From Prorocentrum cordatum (taxonomy: Eukaryota): a stretch of DNA of 57,082 nucleotides. The stretch spans positions 62,001-119,082 of the forward strand of contig CAUYUJ010000047.1 of NCBI GenBank assembly GCA_963575745.1. The letters are read 5' to 3'. A program made the translations under genes and the position numbers. The notes under the pieces were generated by a model. That model worked only from the letters and a program-made list of their open reading frames with translations. It did not search any database and was not told the DNA's origin. Shown in pieces: positions 861 to 49,382 of the stretch (position 1 is its first letter; each line of letters begins with the position of its first letter).

Positions 861-3800
861 GCGCCCCGAAACTGCACCCGCTGGACCTGCTGGACGACGA
901 GGGCTCTGGCCCCTGGACGGCGCGCTCGTCCGTAGCGCCGCTGGCGGCGCAGCCGCCGGACGGCGCCCGCGGCGCCGCGCAGCTGCAGGGTGTCCTGGAG
1001 CGGCTGCAGCACCTGTCGCAGCAGCTGGGGCCGCTGGAGCAGCTGCCGCGGCAGCTGGCGGGCGTGGCCGGCAGCCAGGGGCGGCTGGAGAGGGCGCTGG
1101 GCCAGCTGCAGCAACAGCTCAGGACTCCGGCTGCACGTCAGCGCGGCCCTGCGGCGGAGTGGCCTTCTTGGCGCTGGCCCGCGGGGGTGCCCCCAGCACT
1201 GGCCCGCGCGCTCGGAGGGGGCCGCCCCGTGGCCCCCGAGGGTCGCGCACCAACGGTCGCTCTTGCCCAGGGCCGCTCCTAAGCGTGCACTCCGAGCTTC
1301 TGCAGAAGCGTCGGGGGGGCGTCGCCCCCGCCGACAGCCCCACATCGACCGGCGCGTCGCGGGCAGCCGCCGCGCGCCGAAGGCGCTCGGACCCCCGTCG
1401 CGGCGCGACGACGAGGCGAGGTGGACCCCCGTCGGGAGTGTACCCCCCCACGCTTATGAAGAAGCCCGGAGTCGCCGAAGGATGTCCTCCGCGGCGGCCG
1501 CGGCGGGGACCCGCGGCGCCGCCCCCCCGGCGAGGCGGGCGGGCGAGGACGGCACGCCCGCCGTCCCGGCGCAGACGGGCGACTGCGAGTGGGAGTTCGA
1601 CAACGACGAGCCAGGCCTCCGCGCCGGCGCCGAGCGGGCCCCCGCGCCGGACGCGGACGAGCAGGCCTCAAGCAGTGGCGAAGCGTCCCGGCTCGCCTGT
1701 AGCCCTACCAAACAGTGTCCTGAGAACCTGTTTCTGTGGTTCCCACGACATGTTCTCAGAACATGCCTGGTGGATCTTGTCTTGCTTTAACACATCGGGT
1801 TCATGTTCTAAGAACCTGGTTCTTTCTTCTTAGAACAGCTTTGGGTTCTAAGAACGTTTCGTGGTAGGACTATAGTCAGGAGGAAAAGAAACACACAGAC
1901 ACAATTAATCCTGGATTCCCCAGAAAATATGGGAAAATATGGGAAGTGGGCGGGAAGACAGAAACCCAGAAAATATGGGGAAATATGGGGCACATTTCTA
2001 TTTGTGTGTATTTATTTGTGTGTCCTGGGGCCCCTTCATATAGGAATGCCGGGGCGGCCGGTCCCTGCTCCAAGGCCAGCTGGGAGCGCACCCCGCTCAT
2101 CGGCAGGGAGGAGGGCAGCGTCCGGGGCCCGATGACCGCCCACGTGCAGGGGCGCGCTGGCCGCCCTGGCGAGGCGTCTCCGCGGCCCTCCGAGCGCGCC
2201 GAGGCGCCCGAGCTCTCGAGGGGCGCGGTCGTCGGAGGGGGGGGCCTAAAAGCGTATGTCGGGGGAGAAAAAGATACGGATACGTGTTGTCCCCCTTCGT
2301 TTTCGGCCTTTCCTGGTCCTCCTGGGGAATCCTCGTTGTCACCGCTGGATTCGCCTCGAAATTCTTGTCAGAACGCACCCCAAGAGAGGTCCGGGGACAA
2401 CACGTATCCGTATCTTTCCGCCCCCCAACTAAAAACGTATGGTGACCCCACCGTGTGACGAGTCAGTGGGGGTTCGGGTTCACCGCGCGCTCTGGGACGC
2501 GGGCCGTTCTCCGAGGGCGTCTCGGACGACGGGGGCATCCCGGGTCTCAAAACCGTGCGTTGGCGGACCGCGCGCTGCGGTCGCTGGGGATTCCGAGGTC
2601 ACCACGCGATCCGTCACCACGCGGTTTTTCTGCGGGCGAAGAACGGTATGAAATAAACTTTTCCGCCGTCTGGGACGCCTGCCCCCTAGGCGGCTGGAAA
2701 GTTTATACCCATGCGGTGCCACGTAGGGGTTGAAACTTTCTGGCCGCCCGGGGGGCAGGCGTCCTCGACGGTGGAAAAAATAATCTTACACAGTTCTTCG
2801 CCCACGAAGTTTTGGCACCTCCCAGGTCAGCCCCGGCAGGTCGCCTGCGGCGGTGAGCGCGGCGCAGGGCTCGCAAGGCAGGCGGTCGTCCGGCTCGCCG
2901 CGCTCGAGTGCCCCGTCCACGCCTTCCGACGGCCCAGCCGCAGAGGCGCCGTGGGGCCGCCAGGCCACGACGGGCGCGCGCGGGGCCGCGGTCGGCCGCA
3001 GGAAGGGCTGCGTGGAACTTTTGGCGCTCCGCGTGGGTTTCTTGGATCCGCGCTGGGGACCCCCCTGACGGCGCCTCTGGCGCCGCCTCTGGCGCGCTCC
3101 GCGCGCCAGGGAGGGGGGGTCCAGCGCCGATCCGAGAAATCCGCGCGGACCTCCGAGTGTTAATGTTCATGCTATTGTAGTGGCCTCCGGCCAGTGCCGC
3201 CGATCCGGGGCGCTCCGCAAGATGATGATCAGGATGATGCTGCAGGGGAGGGGGCAGGGGATGATGCTGCAGGGGAGGGGGCAGGGGAGGGGGTCTGCTC
3301 TGCAGGGGGAGTCCGATTGGCAGAGGGAGGAGACTGCAGGGGAGAGGGGTGCTCCGCTCTGAAGGAGGGGGGGGACCACTTGGCAGGACGACCACTGGAC
3401 GGACTGGAAGGGGGGCAGCAGGGCGAGGGGGGGGGGCCCCGTCTTCCGCTCTGCAGGGGGGGGGGCCTGCACGGAGCGGGGTCCGCTCTGCATCGGGGGG
3501 CGGGGGGGCTGGGCTGCAGGGGAGGGGGGGGGGGGGCGGGCGCTTTCCGCTTCGGAGGGGGGGGGGTCCCGCTTTTTCTTGGAGGAGGGGGGGCTGCAGA
3601 TGAGGGCGGGGGTTCTGTCTGCAGAGGGGGGGGACGAGGGAGGGCAGGGGGGAGGGGGGGTGGATCGCTCTACGGGAGGGGTGGGGGGGGGGGGGGCGCA
3701 GGAAGGAGCTCCGTTCTGCAAGGGGGGGGGTGCTCTGCAGGGGGTCGGGTGGGGGGGGCGCTTCTGCCAGTGGGGCGGGGGGGCTACAGGGGCGATGTCC

Positions 3801-7828: not shown

Positions 7829-9063
7829 TTAAGTCGGGCCTGTTCCTCTACAGGAGGAATATTCAAAAATAGTCTGGGGACGATTCTTGGATCATGTTTG
7901 ACTGTTTATGAATATCCAGAAGGGGTTCGCCCCCTGCCGCCGGCCCCCTCTATCGGAGAATGGGCAATGCAAGAGCGAAATCGTGAGGCCTTGGCGCCGC
8001 TGTGAAGCAGCGTCGGGACTTCACGCGAAGACGATGAGTAATCGGCAAGACAAATTGAGATCCTGATGATATTGTTGAATTCGGTGTTGTATTTCGAGCT
8101 TGCTCGCGTATGCTGTGCAAGAAGATTTTCCACGAAGTATTGAATTGTTGCGAATACCGTGTGTTGTTTGACCCTGACCCCACCGATCTGCGTGATGGGT
8201 GCCACCGAATTTCAAGACATGTGGCAAAACCCGTTGGTTTTTCGACCCTGACCCCGCCGATCTGCATGAGGAGTGTCACCGAATTTCAGAAATGAACAAA
8301 TCCCTTGTGTTTTTGGACCCCGACCCCGCCGATCTGCGTGAGGGGGGCCACCGAATTTCAAGACATGTGGCAAATCCCATTGGTTTTTCGACCCTGACCC
8401 CGCCGATCTGCATGAGGAGTGTCACCGAATTTCAAAAAAAAAAAAAAAAATCCTTTGTTTGTTTGGACCCTGACCCCGCCGATCTGCAAGAGGGGTGCCA
8501 CCGAATTTCAGGCATGTAGCAAATCCCTTGTGTTTTTGGACCCTGACCCCGCCGATCTGCGTGAGAGGTGTCACCGAATTTCAAAAATGTGGCAAATCCC
8601 ATGTGTCTTTAGACCCTGACCCCGCCGATCTGCGAGAGACGTGTCGCCGGATTTCAGAAATGTGGCAAATCCCTTGTTTGTTTGAACCCTGACCCTGCCG
8701 ATCTGCGTGAGGGGTGCCACCGAATTTCAGGCATGTAGCAAATCCCTTGTGTTTTTGGACCCTGACCCCGCCGATCTGCGTGAGGGGTGTCAAGTTCGAC
8801 CCCCCCTCAGAAATTTTGATGCCCCTCCTGGGAGGTGCTAACCAGGGCGGTTTTTGGCTCCCCCCCTCGCGCGGTCTACAACAAGGAACAGTAAGCAGCA
8901 AGAAGCAGAACTGTAACAGTGGAAACTAGAAACTGGAACTGGCGCAGGGAACAGCAAACCCTGAGCCTACGGCCTGGTGGCCCCACAAGGGGGCCGGTGG
9001 ATTTGTTGACTATTTTCGTTTTTCCATCCACAATCCGCCTGAAGGGGGACATGCCCGACCTAA
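7829..9063. mobile_element. MITE (TIR AAGTCGGGCNTGTYCCYCTACAGG) split by a nested element
   Basis: Left TIR at ~7830; right TIR CCTGAAGGGGGACATGCCCGACCTAA at ~9038-9063. An uninterrupted copy lies at 52892-53052. Confidence 0.7.
7907..9002 (-). mobile_element. Helentron/DINE-like element carrying a 73-bp satellite
   Basis: Hairpin AGGGG-TTCG-CCCC(C)T (7921-7935); subTIR CCGCCGGCCCCCT (7937-7949) and AGGGGGCCGGTGG (8988-9000); 73-bp array ~8165-8790. Second copy at 18210-19304. Confidence 0.75.
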
Positions 9064-10858: not shown

Positions 10859-10981
10859 TAGCCAAGAGGCGTACGTACGCCATCCCGTCGACCCCCAGAC
10901 GAAGTGAGAATCCCTTGGACCTTGCTAGGGCGAGGTCAGGCGGGGCTTGAGTGCCGTTCGTGACGATCTGGATTTTGGGAA

Positions 10982-12488
10982 ATGCGCCGCCCCCTGTCGA
11001 TTCATCACAGGGGTGCCTGGTTTGCTAGATGATTTTGGTTTTGGTTTTGGTTCTTTTCCAAAAGAACTCCCCCTGGGGCTCCGGCGCGTCCCGCCGGCCA
11101 CCCGGAAGACCCGGTTGTAAACGGGTTTCCTGCCCCAGACGGCCCCAAGATGGCCCAAGATGGCCCAAGATGGTTTCCAAGACGGCTAAGATGGCCCCAA
11201 TATGCCTCGAAGACGGCCCAAGATGCACCCAAGACGGCCTAAAGTAGCCTCAAAATGGCCTAAGACGGCCCAAGGCCCCCAAGAGGCCTCCCAGACGCTC
11301 CAAGAGCTCGTCCAGGAGGGCCCGACGAAGCCAAAATCATTGATTCTCCTTACGTGTTTGAAGGATTTTGGCATTTGCGTCTTTTCGGCCTTCCGACGGC
11401 TGAAGACAGCATAAGAGGCCCCCAAGATCGCCCCAAGATCGCCCAAGAGGCTTCCAAGAGCGCCCCATGACGGCCCAAGAGGCCTCCAAGACGGCCCGAA
11501 GAGGGCCCCAAGGCGGCCCAAGAGGCCTCCAAGACGCCCAAGATGGCTTCCAAGACGGCCCCGAAGCGCCCCAAGAGGGCCCCAAATCGGTTCAGAGAAG
11601 TCCCCAAGACGGCCCCCGACGGCGTCAGACGGGCCAGGAACCCACCAAGATGGCCGAAGTTGGCTCGAAGCTAGCCCAAGAAGGCCCAAGAGGCCTCCAA
11701 GAGGGCCTCCAGGAAGGCCAGGAAATGCCAAGCACCACTGATGTTCCGCAGGTTTTTGAAGGATTTGGGCATGTGCTTCTTTTCGGCCTTCCGACGGCCC
11801 GAGACGACCCAAGAGCCCCCAAAGATCGCCCAAAGATCGCCCAAGAGGCCTCCAAGATGGCTCCAGAGCGGCCCAAGAGCCCCCAAGACGGCCCCGAGAG
11901 GCCCCCAAGACGGCCCAGGAGGCCTTTAAGACGCCCAAGATGGCCTCCAACATGGCCCTGGAGCATTCCAAGAGGGCCCCAGGTCGGCCCAGAGAGGCGC
12001 CCCAAACGGCTTCCGACGGCGTCAGACGCCAGGAGAGATGGCCCAAGACGGTCCACGAGGCCTCCAAGAGGGCTTCCAGAAGTCATTGATTTCCTCTGGG
12101 TTTTTTGATGGATTGTGGCATTTGCTTTTTTGTCGGCCTTCCGACGGCCCGAGACGGCCCAAGTACCCCCAAAGATCGCCCAAGAGGCCCAAGACGGCCC
12201 CAAGAGGCCCCCAAGATGGCCCAAGAGGTCTCCAAGACGCTCAAGATGGCTTCCAAGACGGCCCAAGAGCCTTCCAAGACGTCCTCCGAGAAGGCCCGAA
12301 ATGGTCAAAATGGCCTCCAGACGAACAAGATGACCTTCAAGATGCACACGGGTTCCCCGAAGGCTTTCCAAACCGCTTCGGGGAACACATGGCCCGATAA
12401 CTTGGCAGGTCTGGCCTCAACGTTCGGCCACATAGGCGCTTCCAAAAAGGCAGGGGGCGGCGGTGATTCGCCGTAGGCGTCTTCGATC
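10982..12488 (+). mobile_element. Nested Helentron/DINE-like element with CCAAGA-based tandem cargo
   Basis: subTIR CGCCGCCCCCTG (10985-10996) and perfect inverse CAGGGGGCGGCG (12451-12462), followed by hairpin CGCC-GTA-GGCG. The interior is ~10-bp GGCCCAAGA-type repeats in higher-order units. Confidence 0.7.
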
Positions 12489-12497
12489 AGGAGACAG

Positions 12498-12611
12498 AGA
12501 AGAGGAGGACGAGGAGGAGGAGAAGGAGGAGGAGGAGGTGGAGGAGGGGACGAAGGATGATGATGATGCTGATGCTGATGCTGATGATGATGATGATGAT
12601 GATGATGATGC

Positions 12612-12666
<55 letters not shown>

Positions 12667-13230
12667 CATGATCATGCTCATGATCATGATCATGATCATG
12701 ATCATGATCATGATCATGATCATGATGAGGATGAGGATGAGGAGGAGGAGGAGGAGGAGGAGGAGGAGGTGAGGACGCACGCACGCGAGGTCCACCCACC
12801 CAGAGAGGGAACATGTCAACGTGGGAGGCTTTTTCGAGCCTCTTGGGGACATGCTCGGGGCGTTTGAAGCTTCTGCTGGGCCTGCTGGTGGTCTCTCGAG
12901 GCCTCCTGGGGGGTTCTGAGGCGCCTGCTGGCGGTCTCGGGGCCCCCTTGGAACGGAGGGGCTCGACATGTCAATTCGAGTCACAACTCTCTCTCTCTCT
13001 CTCCCTCTCTCGAGGAGGAAGGGGAGGAGGAGGAGGAGGAGGACGAGGACGAGGAGGAGGAGGAGGAGGAAGAGGAGGAAGAGGAAGAGGAGGACGAGGT
13101 GCAGGAGGAGGAGGAGGAGGAAGAGGAGGAAGAGGAGGAAGAGGAGGAGGAGGAGGAGGAGGAGGAGGGGGAGCGGAAGGGGGAGGGGGAGGAGGAGGCG
13201 GAGGAGGAGGTGGAGGAGGAGGAGGAGGAG
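12498..13230. repeat. (GGA)n and (GAT)n microsatellites
   Basis: Directly visible. Confidence 0.9.
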
Positions 13231-13548
13231 TGGCCCTTTGGGGCCATCTTGAGGTTCTCTCGGAGGCTTGTTGGGCTGCTTTGTGGCGACCTGACGGGCC
13301 TCTTGAGCAGTTATGGAGGGTGTCAAGACCAAAAAGGCGAGCATGCAAAACCCAAAAAAACAATTGGGACGATTCTGCTTCTTGGGACACGGAGTGTCGA
13401 TTTGGAGGATCTGAAGGCCACGGGAGTGTTGAATAGTTCTGTCCCCCACGCGTCCCTTTCGCTCTAACAGGATGTTAGACCCCAGGGGAGGGAGAAAGGG
13501 AAGGGGGGATTGCGCCTTGCACCCCCCCGCAAGTGGGGATCGGCGGAT

Positions 13549-14424
13549 TATTGGTCAGTCAGTGCGCTCATATCGGGAGGCAGCATCATGGAGGTGACCC
13601 AATCGTCTGAGGTTCTTTGCCTCTGCGTGTTCATCATATTCGGGCTCCTCTTCCTCAGCATTCTCATATCGGCCCTTGCTGCTACTGTCATGGACCTGAA
13701 CATGTCCAACAAAGAGCGCAAAGACAAGCTGCGGATGCTTCGTCGGTACTTCTACCAGCATCAGGTGGAAGCACCGGTAGCCATTCCCATCGAGAAGCAG
13801 GCCATCGAGCGCATGGGAAATGTGGCGCGCATCCGCGCTGGGGATGTCGACGTCTTGGCGTTTGTGTCGCCTGCCATGCGAGCGGAGCTCCGTTGCTGTG
13901 TCTACGGCCCGGGCCTCTCTCGCAATGCGTTCATCAGGGCCGTCAATGCGGTCGACAGCGGTATAATTAAGGATCTCTGCTTCAACGAGAGAGCACTGAT
14001 GCAGATGAACTACGATCCAGGCAACTCCGTCTTCGAGCCGGACACGGATGCGCCTGGTGCTTACTTCATCAACTTTGGCTCCCTCGAGTACACGAACGCC
14101 TGGACAGCTGAGGAGAGGTCGAACGCCACGGGTGCCACGGGCAACACCAGGACCAACGGCCAGGTGCAGGAGGTGGCCCAGGGCCAGTGGGTCTGCGAGC
14201 TGGCCCTGCACACGCAGTGGATGCACTGCGGCTGGATGGAGGCGTCCACCGTGTGCGAGCTGCTGGCGGTGGCCGCGGACGGCCTGATGAAGGTGCTCGG
14301 CAGCAGGAAGGAGCTCCTGACCATCGCGCAGCACTACGGAGAGGCGATCATCACGGCAACCAGGCGGGAGGCGCTTGGCATGTTGAGCGACCTGCGCATG
14401 GCCATAGACCACGAGAGTATTATC
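13549..14424 (+). CDS. Channel exon: pore loop, S6, C-linker and cyclic-nucleotide-binding(-homology) domain
   Basis: YWSVSALISGGS pore; S6 EVLCLCVFIIFGLLFLSILISALAA; C-linker LRMLRRYFYQHQV...SPAMRAEL; CNBD VFEPDTDAPGAYFINFGSLEY...GQWVCELAL...EASTVCELLAV. Confidence 0.9.
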
Positions 14425-14574
14425 TGATGGGCCTGTTTTCCACCACCGCCACCTTAAGTTGGATGGGGGGGAGGAGCAGGAGGACGAAGAGGAGGACGAA
14501 GAGGAGGAGGAGGAGGAGGAGGACCCCCATCCCCCTCCAACTTATGGTGGTGGTAGTGGAAAACATGCCCATCA
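14425..14574. mobile_element. MITE inserted in a coding exon
   Basis: TIRs TGATGGGCCTGTTTTCCACCACCGCCACC-TTAAGTTGGA and TCCAACTTATGGTGGTGGTAGTGGAAAACATGCCCATCA; flanked by TTATC/TCATC (probable 5-bp TSD); (GGA)n core. Confidence 0.8.
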
Positions 14575-17481: not shown

Positions 17482-17850
17482 GAGTCGGGCGTGTCCCTTT
17501 ACTCTGGACGCCCGACATGGGTACCGAAAGAATGGGTACAATGCCCAACAGCAGTTCCTGTTCATTCTGAACAGGACTCGCTGTCCGCGCCGCCGCGGCC
17601 TGTGTCCATTCGAGACAGAAGGCCGCCTGCCAAACAGCGGCTGCTGTTGGTTTGGGACAACATTTGTTGTTGGGCATTGTACCCATTCTTTCGGTACCCA
17701 TTTCGGGCGTCCAAATTTACAGGAGGACTATTCAAACATGGAGAGAAAATAGTCTGGGGACGAGTGTTTGAGCATTTATTGCATATATTTTGGGGGTCTT
17801 CTTAATTTTTCGTCCAAAACCCTCCTGTAGGGGGACATGCCCGACCTAAT
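17482..17850. mobile_element. AAGTCGGGC-family MITE with a second MITE (17502-17717) nested in its left TIR
   Basis: The inner element has ~45-bp TIRs (TGGACGCCCGAMATGGGTACCGAAAGAATGGGTACAATGCCCAACA) and a TA duplication at 17500-01 and 17718-19. Confidence 0.8.
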
Positions 17851-18209: not shown

Positions 18210-19304
18210 TATGCGTAAGGGCTTCGCCCCATGCCGCCGGCCCCCTGTCTCGGATAATAGGAGATGCAAAAGCCAAATAATGAGGTCTGGGCGCCGCCGT
18301 GAAGCAGTGTCGGGACCTGTTTGTTTTTCGACCCTGATCCTATGGATCTGCGTGAAGGGTGCCACCGAATTTCAGAAATGTTGCAAATCCTTTGTGTTTT
18401 TTTACCCTGACCCTGCGGATCTGCGTGAGGGGTGCCGCCGAATTTCAAACATATGGCAAATCCCATATGTTTTTGGACCCTAACCCTGTCGGTCCTTGTG
18501 AGAGGTGCCACCGAATTTCAGAAATGTTGCAAATCCCCTAGGTTTTCGGACCCTGACCCCGCCGATCTGCGTGAGGGGTGTTATCGAATTTTAGAAATGT
18601 CGCAAATCCTATGTATTTGTGGACCCTGATCCCGCCGATCTGCGTGAGGGGTGCCATCGAATTTCAGAAATGTTGCAAATCCCTTGTGTTTTTGCACCCT
18701 GACCCCGCCGATCTGCGCGAGGGGTGCCACCGGATTTCAGAAATGTAGCAAATCCCTTCTGTTTTTGCAGCCTGACCCCGCCGATCTGCGTGAGGGGTGC
18801 CATCGAATTTCAGAAATGTTGCAAATCCTTTGTGTTTTTGCACCCTGACCCCGCCGATCTGCGTGAGGGGTGCCATCGAATTTCAGAAGTGTAGCAAATC
18901 GTATGTGTTTCTGGACCCTGACCCCGCCGATCTGCGCGAGGGGTGCCATCGAATTTCAGGAATGCGGCAAACCCTTTGTGTGTTTGCAACTTGACCCCGC
19001 CGATCTGCGTGAGGGGGGCCACCGAATTTCGGAAATGTAGCAAATCCTTTGTGCTTCTGGACCCTGACCCCGCCGATCTGCGTGAGGGGTGTCAATTGTT
19101 CCCACCCCAGCAATTCAGAGCACACGCTCAGGGCGTGCTAAACCTGCCCGTTTGGGCCTCCCCCCCCTCGCGCGGTCCATCAACAAGGAACAGCAAGCAG
19201 CAAGAAGCAGAATTGTAACAGTGGAAACTGGAAGCTGCAACTGGCACAGGAAACTGCGAACCTTTGCCCTACAGCCTGGTGGCCCCACAAGGGGGCTGGC
19301 GGAT
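18210..19304 (-). mobile_element. Helentron/DINE-like element with 73-bp satellite (same family as 7907-9002)
   Basis: Hairpin GGG-CTTCG-CCC; subTIR 18234-18246 and 19290-19302; ~10 units of 73 bp (ORF starts offset by 73). Shares the 3' block AACAAGGAACAG...GGCCCCACAAGGGGG. Confidence 0.78.
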
Positions 19305-21356: not shown

Positions 21357-24033
21357 CAAAACGGAGAAGTCTGGCCCCGTTGTGTCGTGTCAGAGCGGAA
21401 AAACACGGCGGGAGGTGTTTGGATACGGTCGGCCCTTGGTCAGCAGGTCGACCGTGCCAGGCCGAGGGTGCCCCCTGTGTCCTGCGCAAATCCCGACCTG
21501 GGCAACCCGCACGTCCTTGGTTGTTCTGGGGCCACGTTGCCGTCGGAGGAGTCGTCTGCCCTCGCGGGTGTCCGGTCCAATCCACCCCGTCGGTATGTTC
21601 GGCCTCCGGGCGGGCCTGCAGGCGGGCCTGGGGACCGTCGGCAAACGGCTCGGGACGAAGAGCCGCTCACGCGGAGTGGTCCAGACTTCTGGAGGTCCAC
21701 GTCGGCCGAGCATTTTCGTTGGGTGGAGGGCAAAGGGTGAAATCCGAAGTGACGTTTCGATGGATTTTCGAGGCTCGAATCTTTTGAAAGGTGGATCACC
21801 AGACGGATTGATCTTCGAGGTGCAGAAGCCCACATGGATTTCACCCTGAGCCGTCTACCCTAAGAAAGTGATCAGGTCGGGAGGGGTCCGCCAATCTAGG
21901 CTTGTTCCAACCTACTTTAGCTTTGGCCACCAGCAAGAATTTCGAGCACCAAGAAAATGTCGAAACTGGGTGGTTTTCACGTGTCGGCCCCAGGAGGCGA
22001 TACTCGTTCGACACTGCTTCGACACGTTTCTGGGTTCTCGAATTCATTTCTGGAATGTGGTCCTTAAGTACGATGGGAGCTACATAGATCTAGGCCTCCC
22101 AGATGGGATCCCCGAGTAAGTGGGGTCGAAGGATCGCGCCGCATCGCCGATGCATCGACGAAGCGGCTGGATGCTGAAGCAAAGTTTCTCCACGCCGACA
22201 GCGCCGATGCATCGCCGACGTCGCATATGCGCATATGCATCGGCAACGCATGGCCGATGCATCGGCGACACATTGACGATGCAGCGCGATCCTCCCCATC
22301 TACTCAGACCCCTCAGACACATCTGGGAGGCCTCTACTAAACCAGTGCCTAGACCAGTCGAAGGAGGGCCAGTCGAGACAGCCCTGAGATCCGGGCGTTG
22401 CCATTTTCCACAGCGGGCGTTTCTGTTTTCGTTTCGGGCCCTGGGACTATGACAGTTCGAGCCAGCTTGAAAAATGCCGAAGAACAATGTGGTCCAGGAA
22501 TCCAGTTATGAGTTTTCGCAATGCTTCATGTTTTCGCGACGTCCCGGCTGCTCATCGTCGAACTCTTCGGCGTCTGAACGTCCCTTCTCCCTCTCGGCCG
22601 TCCCCCCCTCTCCTTGCCCGCCGGCCAATTCGCAAGCTTGTGCTCCGCTCTAGCTTCTCGCTGGAGCGGAGTTCGCCGCCTCGCCGCTGACGAAACATGT
22701 TCTCGCGACGTCGGATCTCAGGGGTCGAGACATCAGCGACCCTCCCTCGGCTTGTCCGTCCCTTCCTGGGCCCCCCGGAGACTTCTCGTCGCCACGGCCA
22801 GGTCCGCTTCGAAAGACGCGTCGGGATGGGCCCCGGGAGAGGTCCGGGGGCCGATGTTGGGCCGGTGTGGGCCCGGCGGGAGAGCCGCCGTTGTCTCAGC
22901 CGGTCCTTCTCCGGGTCAGGGCCCCCCTAAACCAGGACGCTGCCAGCCAGGAGCGGAGGCTCCAGCCGGAGAGAGTTGCTGCCGTTTTCTCGGACGCGCC
23001 ACCGTCCTGGTCTGCCCGGAAGCCATCTTTTTTTTCGGAGCCCTGGAGAGGGAGAAATCTGGGGCGCGGAAGAGGGGTGGGGTCCTCCAATGCGGTAACA
23101 GGGGGGTCGTTTGGGCGTCCCTCATCCCTCCTCCGCCTCCCTCCTCCTCCTCCTCATCCCCCCTCTTTCCTCCTCCATGCTCCATGCTCCTCTTCTCCTT
23201 CTCCCTTTTCCCTTCTCCTCTTCCTCCTTCTCCTCCTGCTCCTCCTCCGCATCCTGGGGGGTGAGGATCGGGGGTGTACGTGCGTGTGGGGATCACGGCC
23301 TGGGAGATGAACTCTCCCAGCGGACAGGGCCCTTTCTTCTCATCATGATCATCATTGTCTTCTCCCTTGTGGTATGATTGATTGTGTTAATAATGTGATT
23401 CCCAGCGCGCTTATTCCCGTAAGCTATAATGAGTATCCCACTGCATCCCCTTGCCCCCCCTCCCCGGTCCGCGCACACGCCTCGGGCCGTGGTGCGCTAC
23501 CCCCCCCGTTCCTGGCCCCCCTCTCTTCCGCACACCCGACGGAGGGATAGAGGAACACGGCTCGAGGAGCAGTGATCTCAAGGTTGTTGGACGTGCTCTG
23601 CCGCTGGGACTTCTGCTTCTCCTCAGCTTCGGCCGTCGCAGCCCGGTTTCCGGCCCTGGGACCGACCAGCATCAACCTGGGATGAAGCACGTCATTGAGA
23701 ACAAGAGTTTGGAGCTCTGGTGGCCGAGGATCGAGGATCTAGGCATCGGGGTCTTCTCACCTTTTGGGGGACCGCTGGTTCCTCTTCGCCATGGCTGGCC
23801 CCGCCTCGAGATTCTGGTCAAAACGCGCCCCCAGGACAGGTCCAGAAGCCTGTTTCTGATGAGTCGCCATGAAGAGAAGGTGTCTTCGTGGAAAAGGGTC
23901 CCGAGGTCTTTCGCCAGTTTAGGCCCCTGGGGGCTCTTCTAGGGCCACTGCACCGTCCAAACATCTTCCTGGATGAGAGACTGATGCCTGGAAGCACCGC
24001 TGCCTTCAGAACCCATGTCCCTCATGCTGCGAG

Positions 24034-24207
24034 GTGCGCAGCCAGGAGCTCCCGCACGATGCGCTCAGGCGGTTCATCAGGAAGCAGTTCGCCCATCTGG
24101 AGCCGGAGAAGCTTGTGGAGCTGGAGGAGTCCCTGATCAGCCAGGCGACGCGGGAGGTCAACAGCGAGGAGAAGGTGTCGCAGAACTACGGGATCAACTC
24201 CCGGTAT
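24034..24207 (+). CDS. Channel gene exon (VRSQELPHDALRRFIRKQF...SQNYGINSRY)
   Basis: GAG|GTG acceptor in phase 0; completes the LPGTK-VRSQE...ALRR Nudix-box-like motif. Confidence 0.8.
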
Positions 24208-24460
24208 CCACTTGCGTTGCCGCGCGATTCCGCCACCGCGCTCGGGCGGGCGCCAGGGTGGCGGGGTGGTGAGGCGTCGGGGGGGGCGACATGCCACGGG
24301 GCATGGCCACCTGCGCCGTCGTTTTTGGGACGGGCGTTTGGGTCGGAAGGCAAAGTCATGTGGACGTGCTGGGAAAGCAACAAGAAACGTCGGGTTCGAG
24401 GCGCCGGGGGGCCTCGGTTGTTGCTCCAGAAGGAGCGCGAGGAACGTAAAGCGAGGGCCC

Positions 24461-24505
<45 letters not shown>

Positions 24506-24827
24506 ACGCACACTCACACGCACACGCACACGCACACGCACACGCACACGCACACGCACACGCACACGCACACGCACACGCACACGCACACGCACACGCA
24601 CACGCACACGCACACGCACACGCACACGCACACGCACACGCACACGCACACGCACACGCACACGCACGCACACGCACACGCACACGCACACGCACACGCA
24701 CACGCACACGCACACGCACACGCACACGCACACGCACACGCACACGCACACGCACACGCACACGCACACGCACACGCACACACGCACACGCACACGCACA
24801 CACACAACACACACACACACACGCACA

Positions 24828-24901
<74 letters not shown>

Positions 24902-25236
24902 ACGCACACACACACACACACACGCACACGCACACGCACACGCACACACACACGCACACACACGCACAAACACGCACACGCACACGCACACTCACACGCA
25001 CACGCACACGCACGCGCACACGCACGCGCACGCGCATGCGCACGCGCACGCGCACGCGCACGCGCACGCGCACGCGCTCGCGCTCGCGCACGCGCACGCG
25101 CACGCGCACGCGCACGCACGCACCCCTCACCCGCACACGCCACGCACACAAACACAAACACAAACGCAAACACGCATCAACACACACGCACAGACTACAC
25201 GCAACACACACACACACACACACACACACGCACGCA

Positions 25237-25293
<57 letters not shown>

Positions 25294-25443
25294 ACACACA
25301 CACATACACACTCAAAGTTTTACTTCGGCAGCGAGGCAGAGGCAGTCCGCTCCAGCGTGTGGCTATTCGGGGCAATCAAAAGGCGAATTGTCCAGCGTGC
25401 AAGAGGGAGACACACACCTATCGCTGCAAGCGCGATGGCGGGC
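24208..25443 (-). mobile_element. Helentron/DINE-like element with (CA)n/(CACACG)n cargo inserted in an exon
   Basis: subTIR CCGCCACCGCGCT (24230-24242) versus AGCGCGATGGCGG (25429-25441), 12/13 match. Removal joins TAT|TTG to give SRYLRNEF. Confidence 0.7.
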
Positions 25444-25652
25444 TTGCGCAACGAGTTCCGGATGCAGATCGAGTCCGAGTTGTTCTCTCAAGACGGGTCC
25501 AGGGCCCTCGCGAGAAGCTCCAGCAGGACCTCTGGCCGCTTCGGGTTCCGGAGGATCCAGGGAGAGTCCGCGGAGTCGCTCCAAGTGGCCCAGTACGAGG
25601 CGTTTGCCAAGATCGACCCCGAGGAGCCCGACAAGGTGACTGTGATGGCCTG
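25444..25652 (+). CDS. Channel gene exon (LRNEFRMQIESELF...PDKVTVMAW)
   Basis: Coding-like and in frame with the preceding exon; TG|GA donor. Confidence 0.75.
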
Positions 25653-25656
25653 GATC

Positions 25657-25824
25657 TCAGAGGAGGAAAAAATGCCGACACCGCTACCCTCGCCTCGGCT
25701 TCGCCCTGCAAGGCCTCCTGGGAGGCCCTCGTCGCCACTGCTGGGTTCGCTTCAAAATTCTGGTCAGAACGCACCCCGGGAGGGGTCCAATGCGTCGCGG
25801 TATCGGTACCCTGTGGTTTCCCCA
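25657..25824. mobile_element. MITE-derived intron (introner-like) with GGATC target-site duplication
   Basis: GGATC at 25652-56 and 25825-29; interior homologous to the MITE at 2255-2430; a GA...AG intron 25653-25825 restores W-I-D. Confidence 0.7.
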
Positions 25825-25825
25825 G

Positions 25826-25877
25826 GATCGACCCCGGGGCGCTCGCCTTTCTCAGCTCCAGCGCCGGGGATGCCAAG
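25826..25877 (+). CDS. Channel gene exon (IDPGALAFLSSSAGDAK)
   Basis: CCCCAG|G acceptor and AAG|GT donor. Confidence 0.65.
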
Positions 25878-25938: not shown

Positions 25939-25960
25939 TCCGTAGCCATTTTGGCTCAAG
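25939..25960 (+). other. Dinoflagellate spliced-leader sequence (relict SL)
   Basis: TCCGTAGCCATTTTGGCTCAAG is an exact match to the 22-nt DinoSL consensus DCCGTAGCCATTTTGGCTCAAG. Confidence 0.95.
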
Positions 25961-28900
25961 ATCCCAATGCTGGCTGGCACAGCGCCAGCAGGCTTTCCAT
26001 GGATACCGCAAGTCCGCGGCCAGCTCTGGGGTTTCTTTTGGATCCTCCTTTTACAGACTCACGCGGAATATTCCCGAGGTGCCGCGGCCTCTCTCCGCAT
26101 TCGTTCGCCTGCTGAAGTTCAAGAAGAAGGATTGTTCACATGCCCGAGCACGTCAGGGACCGCCCTCCTCGAGGTGGTAGAGATCCATGGCATGAGGCAG
26201 CTACTGGCAAGAAGCTGGATTCCATCAAGGCCGAGTTGGAACAGCTCCTCTCCGCCCAGGTCGCCGCCGCCTCAGCCAAGTTCCAAACTACGGCCGAGAG
26301 AGTCACGGCCGATGCTCAAGCCGCCTTCCTCGCCCAAGTTCAAAGAGTTGCAGATGTTGCCGCAGCCAGACAAGACGCTTGTGATAATGACATTGCTGAG
26401 CTCAAACGCAGGGTGGCCAACGCTGAAGTTGCACGTCAAAAGCTCAACAAATCGGTCGAAGAGATCAATTCCACGTTCACCGTCGCCGAGGCCAAGATAC
26501 CCAACTTGGACATCCCTAACATTGGAGACTGGAATCGACCTGGACACATTGGCACATGGTGGTGCGGTTCTACGGTCGACATCACCAAAGATCAACTACA
26601 ACAAGTTCCCACCCCATGTTTTTCAAGCTGCTGGGGTGGACCTGGCAAAAGTGCGCTTCAACTGCGCTGCTCCTGGCAAGCGCGTTTCCATCAGTCTCAT
26701 GGGAGACGACACCGTCGCTCGACCGCGTGGTCAAGCTCTTCACAACCATCTTCGAATCGGGCGAGACTGGCGGAAACGCGTCATATCCAATGGTAACATC
26801 GACCACGGCCTCTTCGTCAGCGCAGACAAAGGCCCAAGTTGGCACGACAAGAAGTGCAACCAACTCAAGCGTCTCGCCAAGCTCACCGCCACCGCCTTCC
26901 CCGCGCTCGACATCCGCGCGCACAGGACTGACGCATTCCTCTCAGTCGACAACGAGCCAATTGTCCGCATTTATGTGGGTAGCTCTCCATCGGGGCCGAC
27001 AAGAGCCCAATGGTCTGACGCAGCCGTTCGCCATGGAGCTTTTTGAACACCGCAATGACTCGGGCGCGGCCCTCGCCAGCTCCCTTGGCAACGCACTGGA
27101 AGCAGCACCGTGGCTTTAGCACCCGCTGAACGCCGTGGATGCATTCAGATTGAATACGGACTCCTCCATTGCCAGCTGGAACGCACAGGCACCCGTACAC
27201 CGCGACCCTCGCAGAAGGGACATCAAGCGGAATATCTTGGAACCGCACCTCAAGAAGTCCTCTATCATCGCTCTTCAGGAGACGCATGGGACCAGGACCT
27301 CCCTGCGCCAAAAGGCCAACTCCACGGAGATCAAGTACCAGGCGCTGCGCAGCCCTATCCCTCGCAACCTCGCCGCGGGCGGCGCTGCCTTTTTCGCGCC
27401 TAAGTGCCCCCCCCCCCCCCCCCCACCCTCCCCCCCAAGCCTGGAGACATCGACCAGACGGCCAAGCCCGACATGCATGTCTCTGCTTTCGTTCCTGGCC
27501 GCGCCGCTCTCCTTCGCATCGCCGGTGTCACGGGGCAGCATGCGCGCGCCTATCTGAATATCCACAATCACGACCTTTGCGCCGCCGACCGGGCTGCCAT
27601 CAAGCACGCTTGCTTATCCGCGAACAACGAGGCGCTGGCCGAGCCCGACCACGCACTGTTCCCCAGGCTCGGGGACTTCAATATCGCCGAGCACCCAGCG
27701 CGCAGTCTTACTCGACCTATTGACATACATGAGAATGAGCGATCTCCGGATAAGCCGACATGTTGGAAGCAGCTTTTCCGCCAGCTAACCGAGATCACCA
27801 CCGCATCGACTACTCACCGTTGTGCAGCGAACTCCACGGAATCCTGCATTTACCGCTTCTTCACGCCTTTCGCCGCACACAACACCCCGCTGATCGAGAC
27901 CGCCATGGTTATTGATGACTCTCCTCTGGAACGCGGCGGCAGCCCTGCCAGCGAGCACAAGCTCACGCAGGTTCGAATCCGACATCGCGCACAAAGCCCA
28001 CATGCTGAGCGAGCCATGCCCGCTTATCTTTTCCAGCCCAAGTTCTACGCGAGCGCCATCGAGCACCTGCCCCCGAACGCAGACTACGACAACCTCGCCC
28101 CGATCGGCAAGTAGAAAGCCCTCAAGGAGAACATGATTACTGCTGCTTCCCAAGCTCGCGACGCACTCGCGCGCCTCCATCCTGACGCCCCCGAGTCCGA
28201 CCACAACGCCATCTCCAAGGAGGTCAACTCCATGACCACGCGCGGCATTGCCCGAGCGGCGTGGCACCAAAACGCCAAACTCGCCCGCATTCTCATCGAC
28301 AAGTCGACATTGGGCGCGAAGTACCCGCAGATGAACGCGACCCCAGCATCCCCGCATTGCTACTCTGTCATCGTGCTGAAGGACCCTGCGCTCTCCGCGA
28401 CTGACGCCGCCACCTACCACGCCGCGGCCTCTGGCGAGCGACGCGCTCAGGCTGCTGCCGCTGCTCGCCAAGCTTTTCAATAACCACGGCAGCTACGAGG
28501 CGACAGGTGGCGGAAACGAGTCAACACTGAGCGGGGGGAAGGTGAGCTTTGGAAGCCCTTTTCCAAGCGCCTGGTGCTCGCTGGTATCCGAGTGTCCCAC
28601 GGCGCGCCCAACGCGTTGCTCAAGGACCCAAAGGACACGCACTCCGCCATTCAAGCCCACTGCATTCCGATCTTCATCGACAAGCCAGTAGACACCAACG
28701 CCATGAACTCACACCTTGACCCCCCCCCCCCCGCATGCCGACCTTTGACGCCGCGATTCCCGACGAGCACGACCTCTATCTGGCAGCGAAGAACGCTTCT
28801 GATTCCGCACCTGGACCCGGCGGTCTTCCTTATCGTGCCTGGCTTGCCCCTCCCAACAGTTTCTCCATCTTCGCCGAGCTCGCCACTCATCTACCCAGCG

Positions 28901-31897
28901 GCCTCGCTTTCCCGCGCGCGCCACACCATGCCACGATGGCAATATTACCGAAAGGGGGCGAACCTGCCGTGCAAACAGCGCGCGCCCGTAAACCTGGAAA
29001 GTTATGCCCCCTCGCCACGAAGAACACTGACGTGGATATCACCACTTCCGCCACGAACAGAAAGCTCAAGCCGCTGATGCAAACTATTGCGCCCATCCAG
29101 CGTGGCTCTGCCCCTGGGCGACAGTTTTTGGACAGCATTGTCGAGGTCGACACAGAGAGCCGCAAGTATAACACCCTTCCTGATGCCCAAGCGCTTCAAC
29201 CATGCTTTCTGAGCTTGGACAATGCGGCCGCCTTCCCGAGCCTCTCGCACACCTGGATGTGAAACGCCCTACAGAGGTGGGGTATGCACGGCCGAATATT
29301 CACCCTGATACAAGCGTTTCACCACACGCCGATCGCGCTGCTCGAAATGGGAGGCACGCGCCGACCGCTCTTCCTCGCATCAAGTGGGGTCGCGCAAGGT
29401 TGCCCCCTTCAGTGGCGCCATCTTGGCATTAATCTTCGGTCCCCCACTGGCCGGCATCAACGACTACTTCAAGACAGTCCAAAGGGGTATTGCCACAGCA
29501 TGCGCGGATGATCTAGGATGCGTTCTTGTTTGTCTCCGTGACATTGAAGGATTACGACCTCACTCGTTTGCGAGGTTCCAATATGTTGGCCTTCACCTTC
29601 AACCACGCAACTGCATGTTGGCCCCCGTCTGGACCATTGCCTCTTCCGACCTGGTCGACAGCATGAAAGACATTCTTGCTCACATCCACGCCGATTAGGC
29701 CCTCTTTAAGGTCGAGTCCACAGCCAAGTACCTCGGCGTCTTCATGGGGCCTGGAGCTGACGCACGTACCCAATGGTCTGGCCCTGCCGCCAAGTGGCTG
29801 CACCGTGCCCAGATCCTCGGCGAATCTTACGCACCGACCCAGCAGAACACCAAGTCGTACAACTCCTCTGCGCTGACGGCGCTATCCTACTTTGGCCAAC
29901 TCTTCCCTGTACCTGAACTGATTCTCGGCCGCGAGATTCACGCCCCCCACAAGATAATCCGCTCGCCGCCCTCGGCCTTCGCCAAGCTGGGCAGATTGGG
30001 CATGGCGAATTGGGCTGGAGCTGACATCCCCACTGGCGCAGAAGTGCTGATGAGTGCGACGCTGTGGAGAGCTACTGCCACTACCATCAAGAGTTTCCCC
30101 CCCCCCCCCCCCTGATAGACATGCCCAACGGGCCCGTCATGGAGAACCCCCCATAGTCGCTACAGTGAATGCGCACTGGTCTGCCGAGTGTTGGGCTGCG
30201 CCCTTCTCGATTGTCCAACATCTCCAAGCGGCGAAGAATGGCGCCGCTTTCCCAACGGGCAAGGTCCCCATACTCGTGACTCTAAAAAGAATAAAGAGCG
30301 CAGGCTACGCGCGACGGCAACTTCTGGGTGCTCGCCGCAATGCTGCAGCCTCGGCGCTCTTACCGCCACGTCGTCCCGTTCCTGCTCCTGCGAGGAGCGC
30401 ACATCGACACAGTGCACCTCAATCGAAGTACTTGGCCACCCTCCAGACCCACCTTTACGAGGACAACTTCGACATCACCATCGTGAAGAGGCTGAAGTCC
30501 TGGCCCCCGTACATCCCCATGGCTGCTGACGGGCATGGCCCCACAGCAGGGGGGGGGGGCACCAACTACTCAGCCCTGCTACCCAAGCATTACTGAGCTC
30601 TACGTTTTCGACTTCTCCGCAGACGACATCGACTCCTGGCACCTTTTCTTCTGCGCCCGCACCTGATGAGGGCCAAGGCGACCATATCGCTGTTGCTCGT
30701 GAATTTCATGTTCTTGCTGAAGCACGCACGCATTGGGCCGCGGATTGGCCCCCCGTCTTGTACATCGACAACTGGGGCCGCACTCTACGTCGAGACAACG
30801 ATTGGATGGACTGGCGCGAACAATATGTGCTCCGTCATCTTCGCCCATGGAGTTTCCGCATCCTCTACACCGCCGCATCGGAAGAAGACCTTCGTCGCCG
30901 CGCTCACAGCATACGCCGACAGGAGTGGCGCGACTCAGACGCCAACCGCAACGGCTGGGCGGTATACATGACGAGGGTGCCGCGACCAAATGACATACAA
31001 GCGGCGTGCAACCTTGCGGCCGGGGAGCGCCGTCTTCGTCGCCAGTGGATACACATGGCCGACTTCGTCTCTGACCCGTCCGGCAACACTTACATCGAGG
31101 AGATCAATGAGAATATTCATCCAGAAGCTGGCTCGTTCAACGACCTGACCGCAGTGTACAGCTTCCGAACAGTGCCAAGACCCATTGGCGGCGCACGCGA
31201 GCAGTTATCGCCCGCATGCCCCCTGCACGATTCTGGCCCACGATGAAGACCCTGGCTGGCGCCTGGTCAACGTCATGCCGTCTTCATTTACAACCTGATT
31301 GCCGCCCTGCATATACGGGTGCAACGCGAACTACGCAACGGATAGCATCGCGCACTACCTCATCTGCCCTAGACAGCGGCACGCATGGCATATCCCAGGG
31401 GTTGCCTGTCGAACTGCTTACTGGCCCGCCTCGGGATGCACGAGAGCTGCCACAATGTCGACCCGAACAGAGAGAACCACGTCTCCCACGCGACGGTCCG
31501 CCTGGCCGTCGCCTACCGCATGTACCACACATACAAGGGTTATCAGGCTTCCTCCGTCGACGTGAACGCGTTCGAGGCCTCGGCGTACAACCATATGAAT
31601 GAAGCGCAGCGCGTGCCGCCGCACGCCAGGCCCTCCGTCTCGGCGCATCGCCGCACGGAGGCAGTAGCGCGGGCCTGCCGCCAGCCGCTGGTCAGCCTGT
31701 CTCTCCTCCCGACCGTCCGCCGCCCCGCTCGTCCTCACGTGTTCCTCTCTTCCGGCCGCCCGACCGTCCGTCTCTTCCGCTTCGAAACGTAATCTACGCA
31801 GAATGCACGCCGCCTGTGCCGCCCCGCGCGCCACCTGACGCAGCCAGCGCAGGTGACGGCCGCTGGACGTTGATTCGCCCCCTCCAGGATTCGTTCG
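25939..31897 (+). mobile_element. Full-length but degenerate non-LTR retrotransposon (LINE: ORF1, APE, RT, zinc knuckle)
   Basis: Coiled-coil ORF1 ~26140-27117. APE motifs SWNA, ALQETH, LGDFN, SEH (27135-28114). RT motifs SAPGPGG, LPKG, QRG..PGRQ, LDNAAAFPSL, SGVAQGCP, ADD, KYLG (28735-29800). C-terminal CIYGC...HYLICP. Many frameshifts and stops; (CCT)n on both flanks. Confidence 0.9.
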
Positions 31898-46944: not shown

Positions 46945-49382
46945 GCATATACACATAGTCGCCAGGGGTGGGCCTAGGTCTCTGAGCTGTCATGAGGGCA
47001 CCTTGGCGCCTGGTGGCAAGCATCTGGACGCTTGCGGCTTCTTACATGTGCAGCCCAGAGCCGTGTGGTTTCACCATGGTTGGCTCCACGAGTTTACGCT
47101 CCAGCTGGCGTTCATCCGTAGTCGTTGTTTCACCGTCCCGGGGCCGGGGACAGGCCTCCAGAGTCCATGGTCCTCAGGACGCGTTGCAGCCGCGTGTGTG
47201 TTTATCCAGTTCAGCTCCAGGGAGAGCAAGCAGCCTGTCCTGGCGCGATCACACGTTTGCACTAACACACGTTCGAGGATCATCGACGGAGGCAGAAGAC
47301 GTCGAAAAGACAGCCGCCACGATTTTGCTGGCCTCGCTGAACCACGGACCCCTCGCGGCATCAGGGGCAACTTTAGGGGGGGATCGGCTGAGGGGGCCAT
47401 GCATCGACCCCCTTCATCGCCACCTGGTCGCCGGTGGCGGGCCTGATGGCCCTCCCCCCCACGAGCGTGGAGGAAGAGGAGGAGGAGGAGGAGCAGGAGG
47501 AGGAGGAGGAGGAGGAGGTTTTGTTTTTCGTTTGGGCCTGGAGGGGACCGTCCCCCCCTCGTCGTTCCCCCGCGGGCCCACCCACCCCCCCGCGACATCG
47601 TCATCCTGCGCGAGAGGCCCCGACCGCCTCCCTGCCGGGCTTTTTTTTCCCCGCCGCCCCGGAATCCGCTTCTGAGGCACCCCTGGGGCCTGATAGCGGG
47701 CCCTCAGTGGCCGAAGTCGAGGAGAGATTTAAGTCGCGCGCGTCCTTCTACAGGAGGAATCTTCAAAAATAACAAAAAAATAATATCCAGGCAAAGGACC
47801 CAACCATACGCGAATGTGAGAACCGCAGGACGAAGCAAGGGGAATCCCCAATGGGGACGCGAACCGTGTGAGGGGTCCGCCAAATTTGGGCGGGGCCGCC
47901 ATGCGAACCCTGCCACTGGGGCCTTCGGTGGAGCCCCCTATGAGGCCACGAACCGTGTGAGGGGTCCGCCAAAATGGAGCGGGGCCGCCATGCGAACCTT
48001 GCCACTGAGGCCTTCGGTGGAAATCCCTGTGGGGCCACGAACCGCGTGAGGGGTGCGCCACACTGGGGCTGGACCGCCATGCGAACCCTGCCACTAAAGC
48101 CTTTGGTGGAGCTCCCTATGGGGCCGCAAATCGTGTGAGGGATGCGCCAGAATGGCGCGGGGCCGCCATGCGAACCTTGCTACTGGGGCCTTCGGTGGAG
48201 CTCCCGATGGGGCCACGAACCGTTTGAGGGGTGCGCCAAAATGGAACGGTTCCTCCATGCGAACCCTGCCACTGTGGCCTTCGGTGGAGCTCACTTTGGG
48301 ACTGCGAACCGTGTGAGGGGTGCGCCAAAATTGAGCGGGGCCGCAACGCGAACCCTGCCACTAAAGCCTTTGGTGGAGCTCCCGATGGGGCCACGAACCG
48401 TGTGAGAGGTGCGCCAAAAGGACGCTGGGCCGCCATGCGAACCCTGCCACTGGGGCCTTCGGTGGAGCTCCCTGTGGGGCCACGAACCGTGTGAGGGGTG
48501 CGCCAAGATGGCGCGGGGCCGCCATGCGAACCCTGCCACTGGGGCCTTCGGTGGAGCTCCCTATGGGGCCACGAAACGCTGTGCTGGGTGGGTGAAACGC
48601 AGGGAGGAGGGGGAGGAGGGCGGAGGGGGAGGAGGAAGGAGGAAGGGGGGAGGAGGGACGCGGGGACCGTTTCTTCAAAACGAGGACTCAACACCACAGG
48701 ACGGTTGGGAATTATCTTGGAGAAGGACCCAACCAGATGCAGTTGTGAGTAACGCGTTGTGGGTGCCGCTTTCGGTGGAGCTCCATAGGTGTCCACGAAA
48801 CGCGTGGGCAACGTGCCGTAATGGGTGAGGGAGACGCATGAGGGCGGTGGGGCCTTCGGTGGGGCTCCCTATGGGCACCGAAACGCTGTACTGGGTGTGG
48901 CTGACGCGTGTGGGCGGTGCCCCTCGCTGGAGCTCCCGATGAGGCCACGAAACGTTGTATGTACGTGTTGGGGGAAACGCATGCGGGCGGTGCCGCTGAG
49001 GTTTTCCTGTGGAGCCCCCCACGGGGCCACGAAACGTTGTACTGGGCGGTGGCCGACGCATGCGGGCGGTGCCATAGGGACATTCGGTGGAGCTTCCTGT
49101 GGGGCCACGGGAGGTGGGACGCATGCGGGCGGTACCACTGGGGCCTTCGGTGGAGCTACCTATTGGCCAACGAAACGCTGTATTGGGTGGGGGGTCGCAT
49201 GTGGGCGGGCCACTGGGTCCCCCTACGGGGCCACGAAGCGCTGTACTGGGTGGGGGGGGCGCATGCGGGCGGTGCCACTGGGTTTTTCCCAACCCTCCGT
49301 GTGTTGGGTATTCGTTTTGAAAAGAGAACTGTGGTATCCACCTTCCGCCCGCTCTTCCTTCTTCTCTCCTGTGTTCGCGGTG

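What the first reader, a model, noticed from the sequence alone, without database searches (positions are those of the whole stretch)
25652..25829. Scarless introner: the TSD supplies a GA donor and completes the AG acceptor
Seen: GGATC is duplicated around a 168-bp element with decayed TIRs (TGCCGACACCGC / GCGGTATCGGTA). Its interior matches the MITE at 2255-2430. Intron 25653-25825 (GA...AG) removes the element plus exactly one TSD length and restores MAW-IDPG. Inference: completed TE-to-intron conversion made possible by GA donors. With the other three insertions, one gene shows a gradient of intron birth.
Basis: partly seen in the sequence, partly recalled or inferred. Interest (0 to 1): 0.7.

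Follow-up and report, generated by a model that had tools for sequence, protein, structure and literature searches.

The report
Transposon-made intron in dinoflagellate channel gene
A 168-base miniature transposon that landed in the coding part of a dinoflagellate ion-channel gene is cut out of the messenger RNA exactly, as a 173-base intron whose splice signals come largely from its own insertion scar; this is a clean example of an already known way of making introns.

Summary
Real, but a known mechanism. Window 25657-25824 is a decayed 168-bp MITE flanked by GGATC. In 2 of 4 runs laid, from two studies, a contig skips exactly 173 nt here. The other two, DNA-like, carry the insertion's left junction. 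Homologs read MAW-[LV]-DPE with no indel.

Independent family copies start at 25657 and end near 25824, so GGATC is a target duplication, not element sequence. The element is 68% identical end to end to the MITE at 2259-2428. The only canonical register is GA..AG, with GA from the duplication and AG from the element's last A plus the duplication's G.

Introners with TSD-recruited GA donors are published for dinoflagellates, and GA is 23.8% of donors in Prorocentrum cordatum. 'Made possible by GA donors' holds for this site only: GA adds 3.9 points to 9.1% of usable sites. No GGA target preference was seen, but the family-wide test found no flanks.

More interesting is the intron just upstream: RNA shows its downstream exon starting where no AG lies.

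The parts
25652..25656 (+). Left target-site duplication GGATC; its bases 2-3 give the GA donor
   Evidence: family copies begin aligning at 25657
25653..25825 (+). 173-nt intron (GA..AG register), equal to the element plus one TSD length
   Evidence: contigs of runs X16 and X4 skip 173 nt with 5 ambiguous letters; homolog continuity
25657..25824 (.). 168-bp decayed MITE with T...A ends, member of an abundant family
   Evidence: X16 record 11 aligns 25657-25824 with 29 other letters, 2 gaps and unrelated flanks; 68% to MITE 2259-2428
25675..25687 (+). Left TIR remnant, 18 nt inside the element end
25794..25806 (-). Right TIR remnant, 18 nt inside the element end
   Evidence: family consensus arm in loose ends
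25714..25788 (+). Conserved core shared with very many copies and with three other places in the window
25825..25829 (+). Right TSD GGATC; its first G completes the AG acceptor, its second G starts the exon
25443..25652 (+). Upstream exon of the ion-channel gene (LRNEF...VMAW)
   Evidence: RNA contigs align 25443-25651 with 0-1 differences; tblastn
25826..25877 (+). Downstream exon (IDPG...GDAK), followed by a GT..AG intron to the exon at 32474
2259..2428 (.). Related MITE with the same core, a 25-bp perfect inner TIR and a 13-nt near-repeat flank (12/13)
22736..22845 (+). Partial, older relative of the core (72%)
23781..23844 (+). Partial, older relative of the core (77%)

Best explanation
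A non-autonomous cut-and-paste element (MITE, T...A ends, 5-bp staggered cut) inserted into the coding sequence TG-GATC of a dinoflagellate Ion_trans channel gene and duplicated GGATC (insertion inferred; boundaries shown). That put G|GA at the left end and A+G|G at the right end. The dinoflagellate spliceosome, which accepts GA donors, removes the element plus one TSD, so the mRNA and protein are unchanged (173-nt removal shown; use of the GA..AG register by the spliceosome inferred). The insertion was therefore tolerated, and its TIRs have since decayed (loss of the hairpin shown; age inferred from about 82% identity to the closest listed full-length copy). It is an introner-derived intron of the published kind.
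For: RNA skip of 173 nt in X16 and X4, two studies. Unspliced left junction with 0 differences in X1 and X2. Homologs P0002-P0004 are colinear across the junction. Family ends at 25657 and about 25824. Two other local hairpin elements have T...A ends and exact 5-bp TSDs. The extra ATC match has a chance of 12 in 774. The upstream exon ends TG, not AG as at the four other canonical introns tested. The hairpin is no better than shuffles (z +0.95; MITE z -6.9), so removal is unlikely to rely on strong base pairing now. GA is 23.8% of donors in this species. Retention shifts the frame (173 mod 3 = 2).
Against: Only contigs were laid, one joined contig per run, and X4's kind is not on record, so an intron-less allele or retrocopy is not excluded. 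Neither DNA-like run covers the right junction. No genomic ortholog lacking the intron was seen. The closest local relative (2259-2428) has a 13-nt near-repeat rather than a 5-bp TSD. 4 of 9 listed family pieces reaching the right end run 1-4 bases into GGATC, so a 170-bp CT...AG element with a 3-nt TSD cannot be fully excluded. No second family member was shown to be an intron. No transposase was found.
Confidence: 0.85

Rival explanations
1. The element is TE-derived, but it is (or at first was) removed by a signal-independent route guided by the repeat or hairpin, as proposed for Amoebophrya. The GA..AG register is then a coincidence or a later takeover.
For: 13% of exon positions would look canonical by chance. 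The mRNA cannot resolve the register (5 ambiguous letters). The upstream exon starts at 25443 in both RNA contigs, while the nearest AGs are at 25429 and 25454. Unchecked earlier notes report AG-less hairpin introns in this genome.
Against: A textbook G|GA..AG|G register exists. The hairpin is lost (end duplex z -1.8, against -7 to -14 for three free MITEs), yet splicing is exact.
Confidence: 0.1
2. An older ordinary intron into which a MITE inserted, or which a MITE replaced; GGATC is just a dinoflagellate boundary repeat (IRIB).
For: Boundary repeats of 3-5 nt occur at 4 of 4 other canonical introns tested. IRIBs of 2-11 bp are general in dinoflagellates.
Against: The element fills the intron except for the 5 repeat bases. 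Family copies start and end at those points. The TIR offsets are symmetric to those ends.
Confidence: 0.03
3. The insertion is not spliced; the joined contigs come from another allele, paralog or retrocopy that lacks the element.
For: Contigs are not reads. No DNA run was shown to lack the joined form over both junctions, and the cross-run check of the joined form was not given.
Against: The joined contigs match this locus with 0-1 differences over 209 nt, while the paralog in the same runs differs at 17 of 91 bases. Two DNA-like runs from separate studies carry the insertion. A canonical register exists.
Confidence: 0.02

Closest known systems
Introner-like elements of Polarella glacialis and Symbiodinium (Roy et al., bioRxiv 10.1101/2020.10.14.339549; abstract and results, parts 1-2 of 4 read)
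   Same: TIR element with a TSD, donor recruited from the TSD, GA donors typical of young introns, mRNA length unchanged. Class 9 has splice sites inside the TSD or spanning the element-TSD boundary.
   Different: Here a 5-nt GGHNN TSD has the donor at bases 2-3 and the acceptor spans the boundary. Their 5-nt class 12 takes the AG wholly from the TSD (NAGGH/NNAGG), and class 9 has a 3-nt TSD. Sequence homology to their families was not tested; the bioRxiv supplement is closed.
Introners with TSD-recruited splice sites across eukaryotes (Gozashti et al. 2022, PMC9860276; passages)
   Same: [quoted passage not shown] 2E legend, Florenciella).
   Different: Different lineage and family. This copy is old and decayed, and family-wide intron creation is not shown.
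Introner elements of P. cordatum (Dougan et al. 2023, PMC10666404; passages, Table 2 and supplement passages)
   Same: Same species by the name of the best protein hit. IEs are reported in 2.4% of introns, with 3-5-nt direct repeats; GA donors are 23.8%.
   Different: Those were pattern-defined, with no family or splice-recruitment analysis in the passages seen. The public model P0001 mis-splices this junction.
Non-canonical introner elements of Amoebophrya (Farhat et al. 2021, PMC7789003; passages)
   Same: MITE-like, inverted repeats plus 3-5-nt direct repeats overlapping the boundaries.
   Different: The focal intron has a GA..AG register and no stable hairpin. The neighbouring insertions in this gene resemble them more.

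Membership tests
Introner (TE-derived spliceosomal intron) | Removed precisely from mRNA | tested here: met
   173-nt skip in contigs of 2 of 4 runs laid; homologs have no indel
Introner (TE-derived spliceosomal intron) | Intron is a copy of a dispersed family, with homology running to its ends and not into exons | tested here: met
   924, 5, 60 and 232 contigs laid (most on the element); one aligns exactly 25657-25824; MITE 2259-2428
Introner (TE-derived spliceosomal intron) | Splice sites carried by the element or recruited from the TSD | tested here: met
   Only canonical register of six is GA (TSD) .. A (element) + G (TSD); the actual cut register cannot be seen in mRNA
Introner (TE-derived spliceosomal intron) | Several family members form introns in unrelated genes | tested here: inconclusive
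   No genome held; 0 hits in JGI contigs and IMG/VR
Introner (TE-derived spliceosomal intron) | Intron absent from the orthologous genomic site (gain) | not testable with these tools
   Only proteins of relatives were obtained, no genomic DNA
MITE | Short, non-coding, terminal inverted repeats | tested here: met
   168 bp; decayed arms 11/13 at symmetric offset; intact arm in family consensus
MITE | TSD of fixed length | tested here: inconclusive
   5 bp here and at two unrelated local elements, but a 13-nt near-repeat at the closest local relative
MITE | Autonomous partner or transposase superfamily | not tested
   No search for a partner was possible without the genome
P. glacialis ILE class 12 (5-nt TSD) | 3' splice site AG lies inside the TSD (NAGGH or NNAGG) | tested here: not met
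   TSD is GGATC with no AG (definition)
Amoebophrya-type non-canonical introner | No canonical-type ends in any register; hairpin-forming | tested here: not met
   GA..AG register present; fold z +0.95

The most novel reading that the evidence does not exclude
In this free-living dinoflagellate, T...A-ended, 5-bp-TSD hairpin elements are removed from mRNA whether or not they have splice signals. Copies that happen to have a G[TCA]..AG register, like this one, pass to the ordinary spliceosome and lose their TIRs, while AG-less ones in the same gene (14420-14574, 24207-25442, about 10861-13547) use a second route. One gene would then hold both end states of a non-canonical-to-canonical path of intron birth. 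For: focal hairpin lost while the AG-less 150-bp element keeps a strong one (z -6.4); RNA starts the exon at 25443 with no AG. Against: the RNA-supported AG-less intron has no end duplex (z 0.0), and the 150-bp one is untested on RNA and has an in-frame GT..AG alternative.
Probability: 0.25. Interest if true: 0.7.

Novelty: new member of a known kind. Interest (0 to 1): 0.28.

Why it matters
As it stands it is a well-documented single case of intron gain by a MITE in Prorocentrum, and it corrects a public gene model: P0001 uses a wrong donor and reads the C-terminus in the wrong frame. It would matter more as the canonical control in a genome-wide test of whether AG-less, transposon-derived introns in this species use a separate removal route and later convert to ordinary introns.

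Tried and rejected
No whole genome is held, so family copies with flanks could not be collected. Two family patterns in JGI metagenome contigs and one in IMG/VR found 0 matches, so TSD preference is untested family-wide.

An nhmmer profile found only 4 core copies in the window. Three protein searches found no full-length protein of this species, so the junctions at about 10860 and 14420 have no mRNA check.

I considered whether GGATCTCAG is element sequence, because the relative at about 22712 has it upstream of its core. Rejected: contigs of the family begin aligning at 25657. A 170-bp CT...AG element with a 3-nt TSD is disfavoured, because one full-length copy aligns exactly 25657-25824 and the MITE at 2259 has G/C rather than C/G outer bases; it is not fully excluded.

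Contig depth was not used as copy number. Only 4 of the 24 runs listed were laid. Sequence look-ups in earlier findings gave nothing.

Huff et al. 2016 is not held and was seen only as a citation. A search for 'Prorocentrum cordatum', 'non-canonical', 'intron' and 'hairpin' from 2022 on found 0 papers, and 'Prorocentrum' does not occur in Gozashti 2025 (PMC12130899, passages); these are narrow searches. The gene list of IE-bearing genes (Additional File 3 of PMC10666404) was not among the two supplement files held and may list this gene.

Full report
Context. The window is about 60% GC and carries an exact dinoflagellate spliced-leader motif. The best protein hit is named Prorocentrum cordatum. 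No genome is held. tblastn with four homologs shows that the site lies near the 3' end of one gene running from about 850 to 32650. Homolog P0004 has an Ion_trans domain (E 2.4e-11), and the window's large exon has a weak cNMP-binding hit (E 0.022, below the cut-off).

Observation. GGATC lies at 25652 and 25825 with 168 bp between, and removing 25653-25825 (173 nt, GA..AG) gives VMAW-IDPGAL. Homologs read AMAWLDPEAL, IMAWLDPEAM and IMAWVDPEAM, so the join restores the protein with no indel. The public model P0001 instead joins VM to DRPRG, which implies a donor 5 nt upstream and a wrong frame.

Splicing. Of 24 runs listed I laid four. X16 (RNA on record) and X4 (kind not on record, another study) each have one contig that skips 173 nt with five ambiguous letters; they match the upstream exon with 1 and 0 differences over 209 nt. 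X1 and X2 (guessed DNA, two further studies) each have a 151-nt contig crossing the left exon-element junction with 0 differences and show no joined form, but neither covers the downstream exon. These are contigs, not reads, so efficiency is unknown, and the register cannot be read from mRNA; GA..AG is the only canonical one of six.

The element. It matches the MITE at 2259-2428 end to end (114 of 167 aligned bases; 0 of 2000 shuffles) and two partial copies. The runs hold many relatives (924, 5, 60 and 232 contigs laid). One aligns exactly 25657-25824 with flanks on both sides (29 other letters, 2 gaps), two more start at 25657, and six in X1 diverge behind 25824 with mixed flanks (agreement 0.51). 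So GGATC is outside the element. Against a sharp right end: of nine listed family pieces that reach it (29 pieces shown, 1198 not), four run 1-4 bases into GGATC and three stop 1-2 bases short.

TIR and TSD. The TIR remnant is marginal alone (115 of 2000 shuffles) but is symmetric to the TSD-defined ends (best of 31 offsets), and the family consensus arm is intact. The copy no longer folds better than shuffles (z +0.95; end duplex z -1.8, 12 of 300), unlike the MITE at 2259 (z -6.9). A 5-nt boundary repeat is weak alone: the gene's four other canonical introns tested have 4, 5, 3 and 5 nt, and such repeats are general in dinoflagellates (Mendez et al., PMC5032977, passages). Here, though, only GG follows from the splice consensus, and ATC follows G at 12 of 774 exon positions. 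The closest local relative, however, has a 13-nt near-repeat, which I cannot explain.

Mechanism. Shown: element boundaries, duplication, exact removal, decay. Inferred: transposase-mediated insertion, spliceosomal use of G|GA and AG|G, and relaxed selection on the TIRs. Simulating this element at 2299 exon positions of the gene, 13.0% give a canonical register in either orientation: 9.1% with GT/GC and 3.9% only through GA. So GA tolerance was needed at this site but only modestly widens the target. A GGA preference is better read as a survival filter than as an insertion preference; the family-wide test found no sequence.

Comparison. Roy et al. (abstract and results read) describe 15 introner classes in Polarella, TSD-recruited donors, GA enriched in young introns, and splice sites spanning the element-TSD boundary. 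Gozashti et al. 2022 (passages) list both sites being partly recruited from the TSD. Dougan et al. (passages) report introner elements in 2.4% of P. cordatum introns, 23.8% GA donors and only 79.7% AGG acceptors. The finding works like these and meets the testable membership features. The exact geometry (5-nt GGHNN TSD, boundary-spanning AG) is not one of the classes in the text I read, but it lies within the described range. Supplements that I could not see may list this family or gene.

Beyond the finding. Both RNA contigs start the upstream exon at 25443, where the preceding bases are GG; the nearest AGs (25429, 25454) would start it at 25431 or 25456. Homologs read SRY-[LA]-RNEF, which fits a 24207-25442 intron with TC..GG ends. 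The letters upstream of the joint were not shown, so the donor is inferred. A 150-bp hairpin at 14425-14574 with a 4/5 TSD has no AG register for exact removal, but no RNA was laid there. These fit unchecked earlier notes of AG-less introns in this genome and the Amoebophrya pattern (passages). They keep open the rival that the focal GA..AG is incidental, and they give the novel case. Against a simple hairpin rule, the RNA-supported AG-less intron has no end duplex.

Verdict. A real, spliced, transposon-derived intron; a new member of a known kind; interest 0.28.

Noticed in passing
window 24207-25442: Intron just upstream in the same gene. RNA contigs of two studies start the next exon at 25443, where no AG precedes; the homolog-restoring join has TC..GG ends, and CTTGCG is repeated near both ends. 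No end duplex. Probably an AG-less intron; the public model uses an AG at 25429 that the RNA does not support.
   Followed up: partly
window 14425-14574: 150-bp hairpin element (TGATGGG...CCCATCA, z -6.4) inside the DHESII-TSMP coding stretch, with a 5-bp TSD of 4/5 match. Exact removal (155 nt) has no AG register; an in-frame GT..AG alternative adding a few residues appears possible by eye. No RNA test.
   Followed up: partly
window 10861-13547: About 2.7-kb insertion splitting the channel's FDYLL-YWS stretch. The join that matches homologs (LLSYYWS in P0005) would have GC..GA ends; the canonical joins listed delete or change conserved residues. No RNA test.
   Followed up: partly
window 25939-31850: A full spliced-leader sequence (25939-25960, 0 mismatches, 0 of 100 shuffles) directly precedes a broken LINE-like region (weak Exo_endo_phos E 0.005 and RVT_1 E 0.07, both below cut-off) inside the next intron: apparently a retroposed, trans-spliced retroelement RNA.
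   Followed up: partly
window 2246-2441: The related MITE (2259-2428) is flanked by a 13-nt near-repeat (12/13) instead of a 5-bp TSD, and has a different inner TIR around the same core.
   Followed up: partly
window 25789-25796: Five of eight bases differ from the commonest other letters in family contigs, just inside the right TIR arm and about 35 nt before the AG. Could be one multi-base event or a splice-related change.
   Followed up: no
window 2629-2808 and 17503-17715: Two further hairpin MITEs with T...A ends and exact 5-bp TSDs (GTTTT, TTTAC).
   Followed up: partly
window 8153-8893 and 18239-19195; 47758-48680: Two arrays of one 73-bp tandem repeat about 10 kb apart, and an 89-bp tandem array.
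   Followed up: no
window 25333-25412: A second dispersed repeat sits just before the upstream exon, inside the AG-less intron (raised depth in X1 and X4).
   Followed up: no
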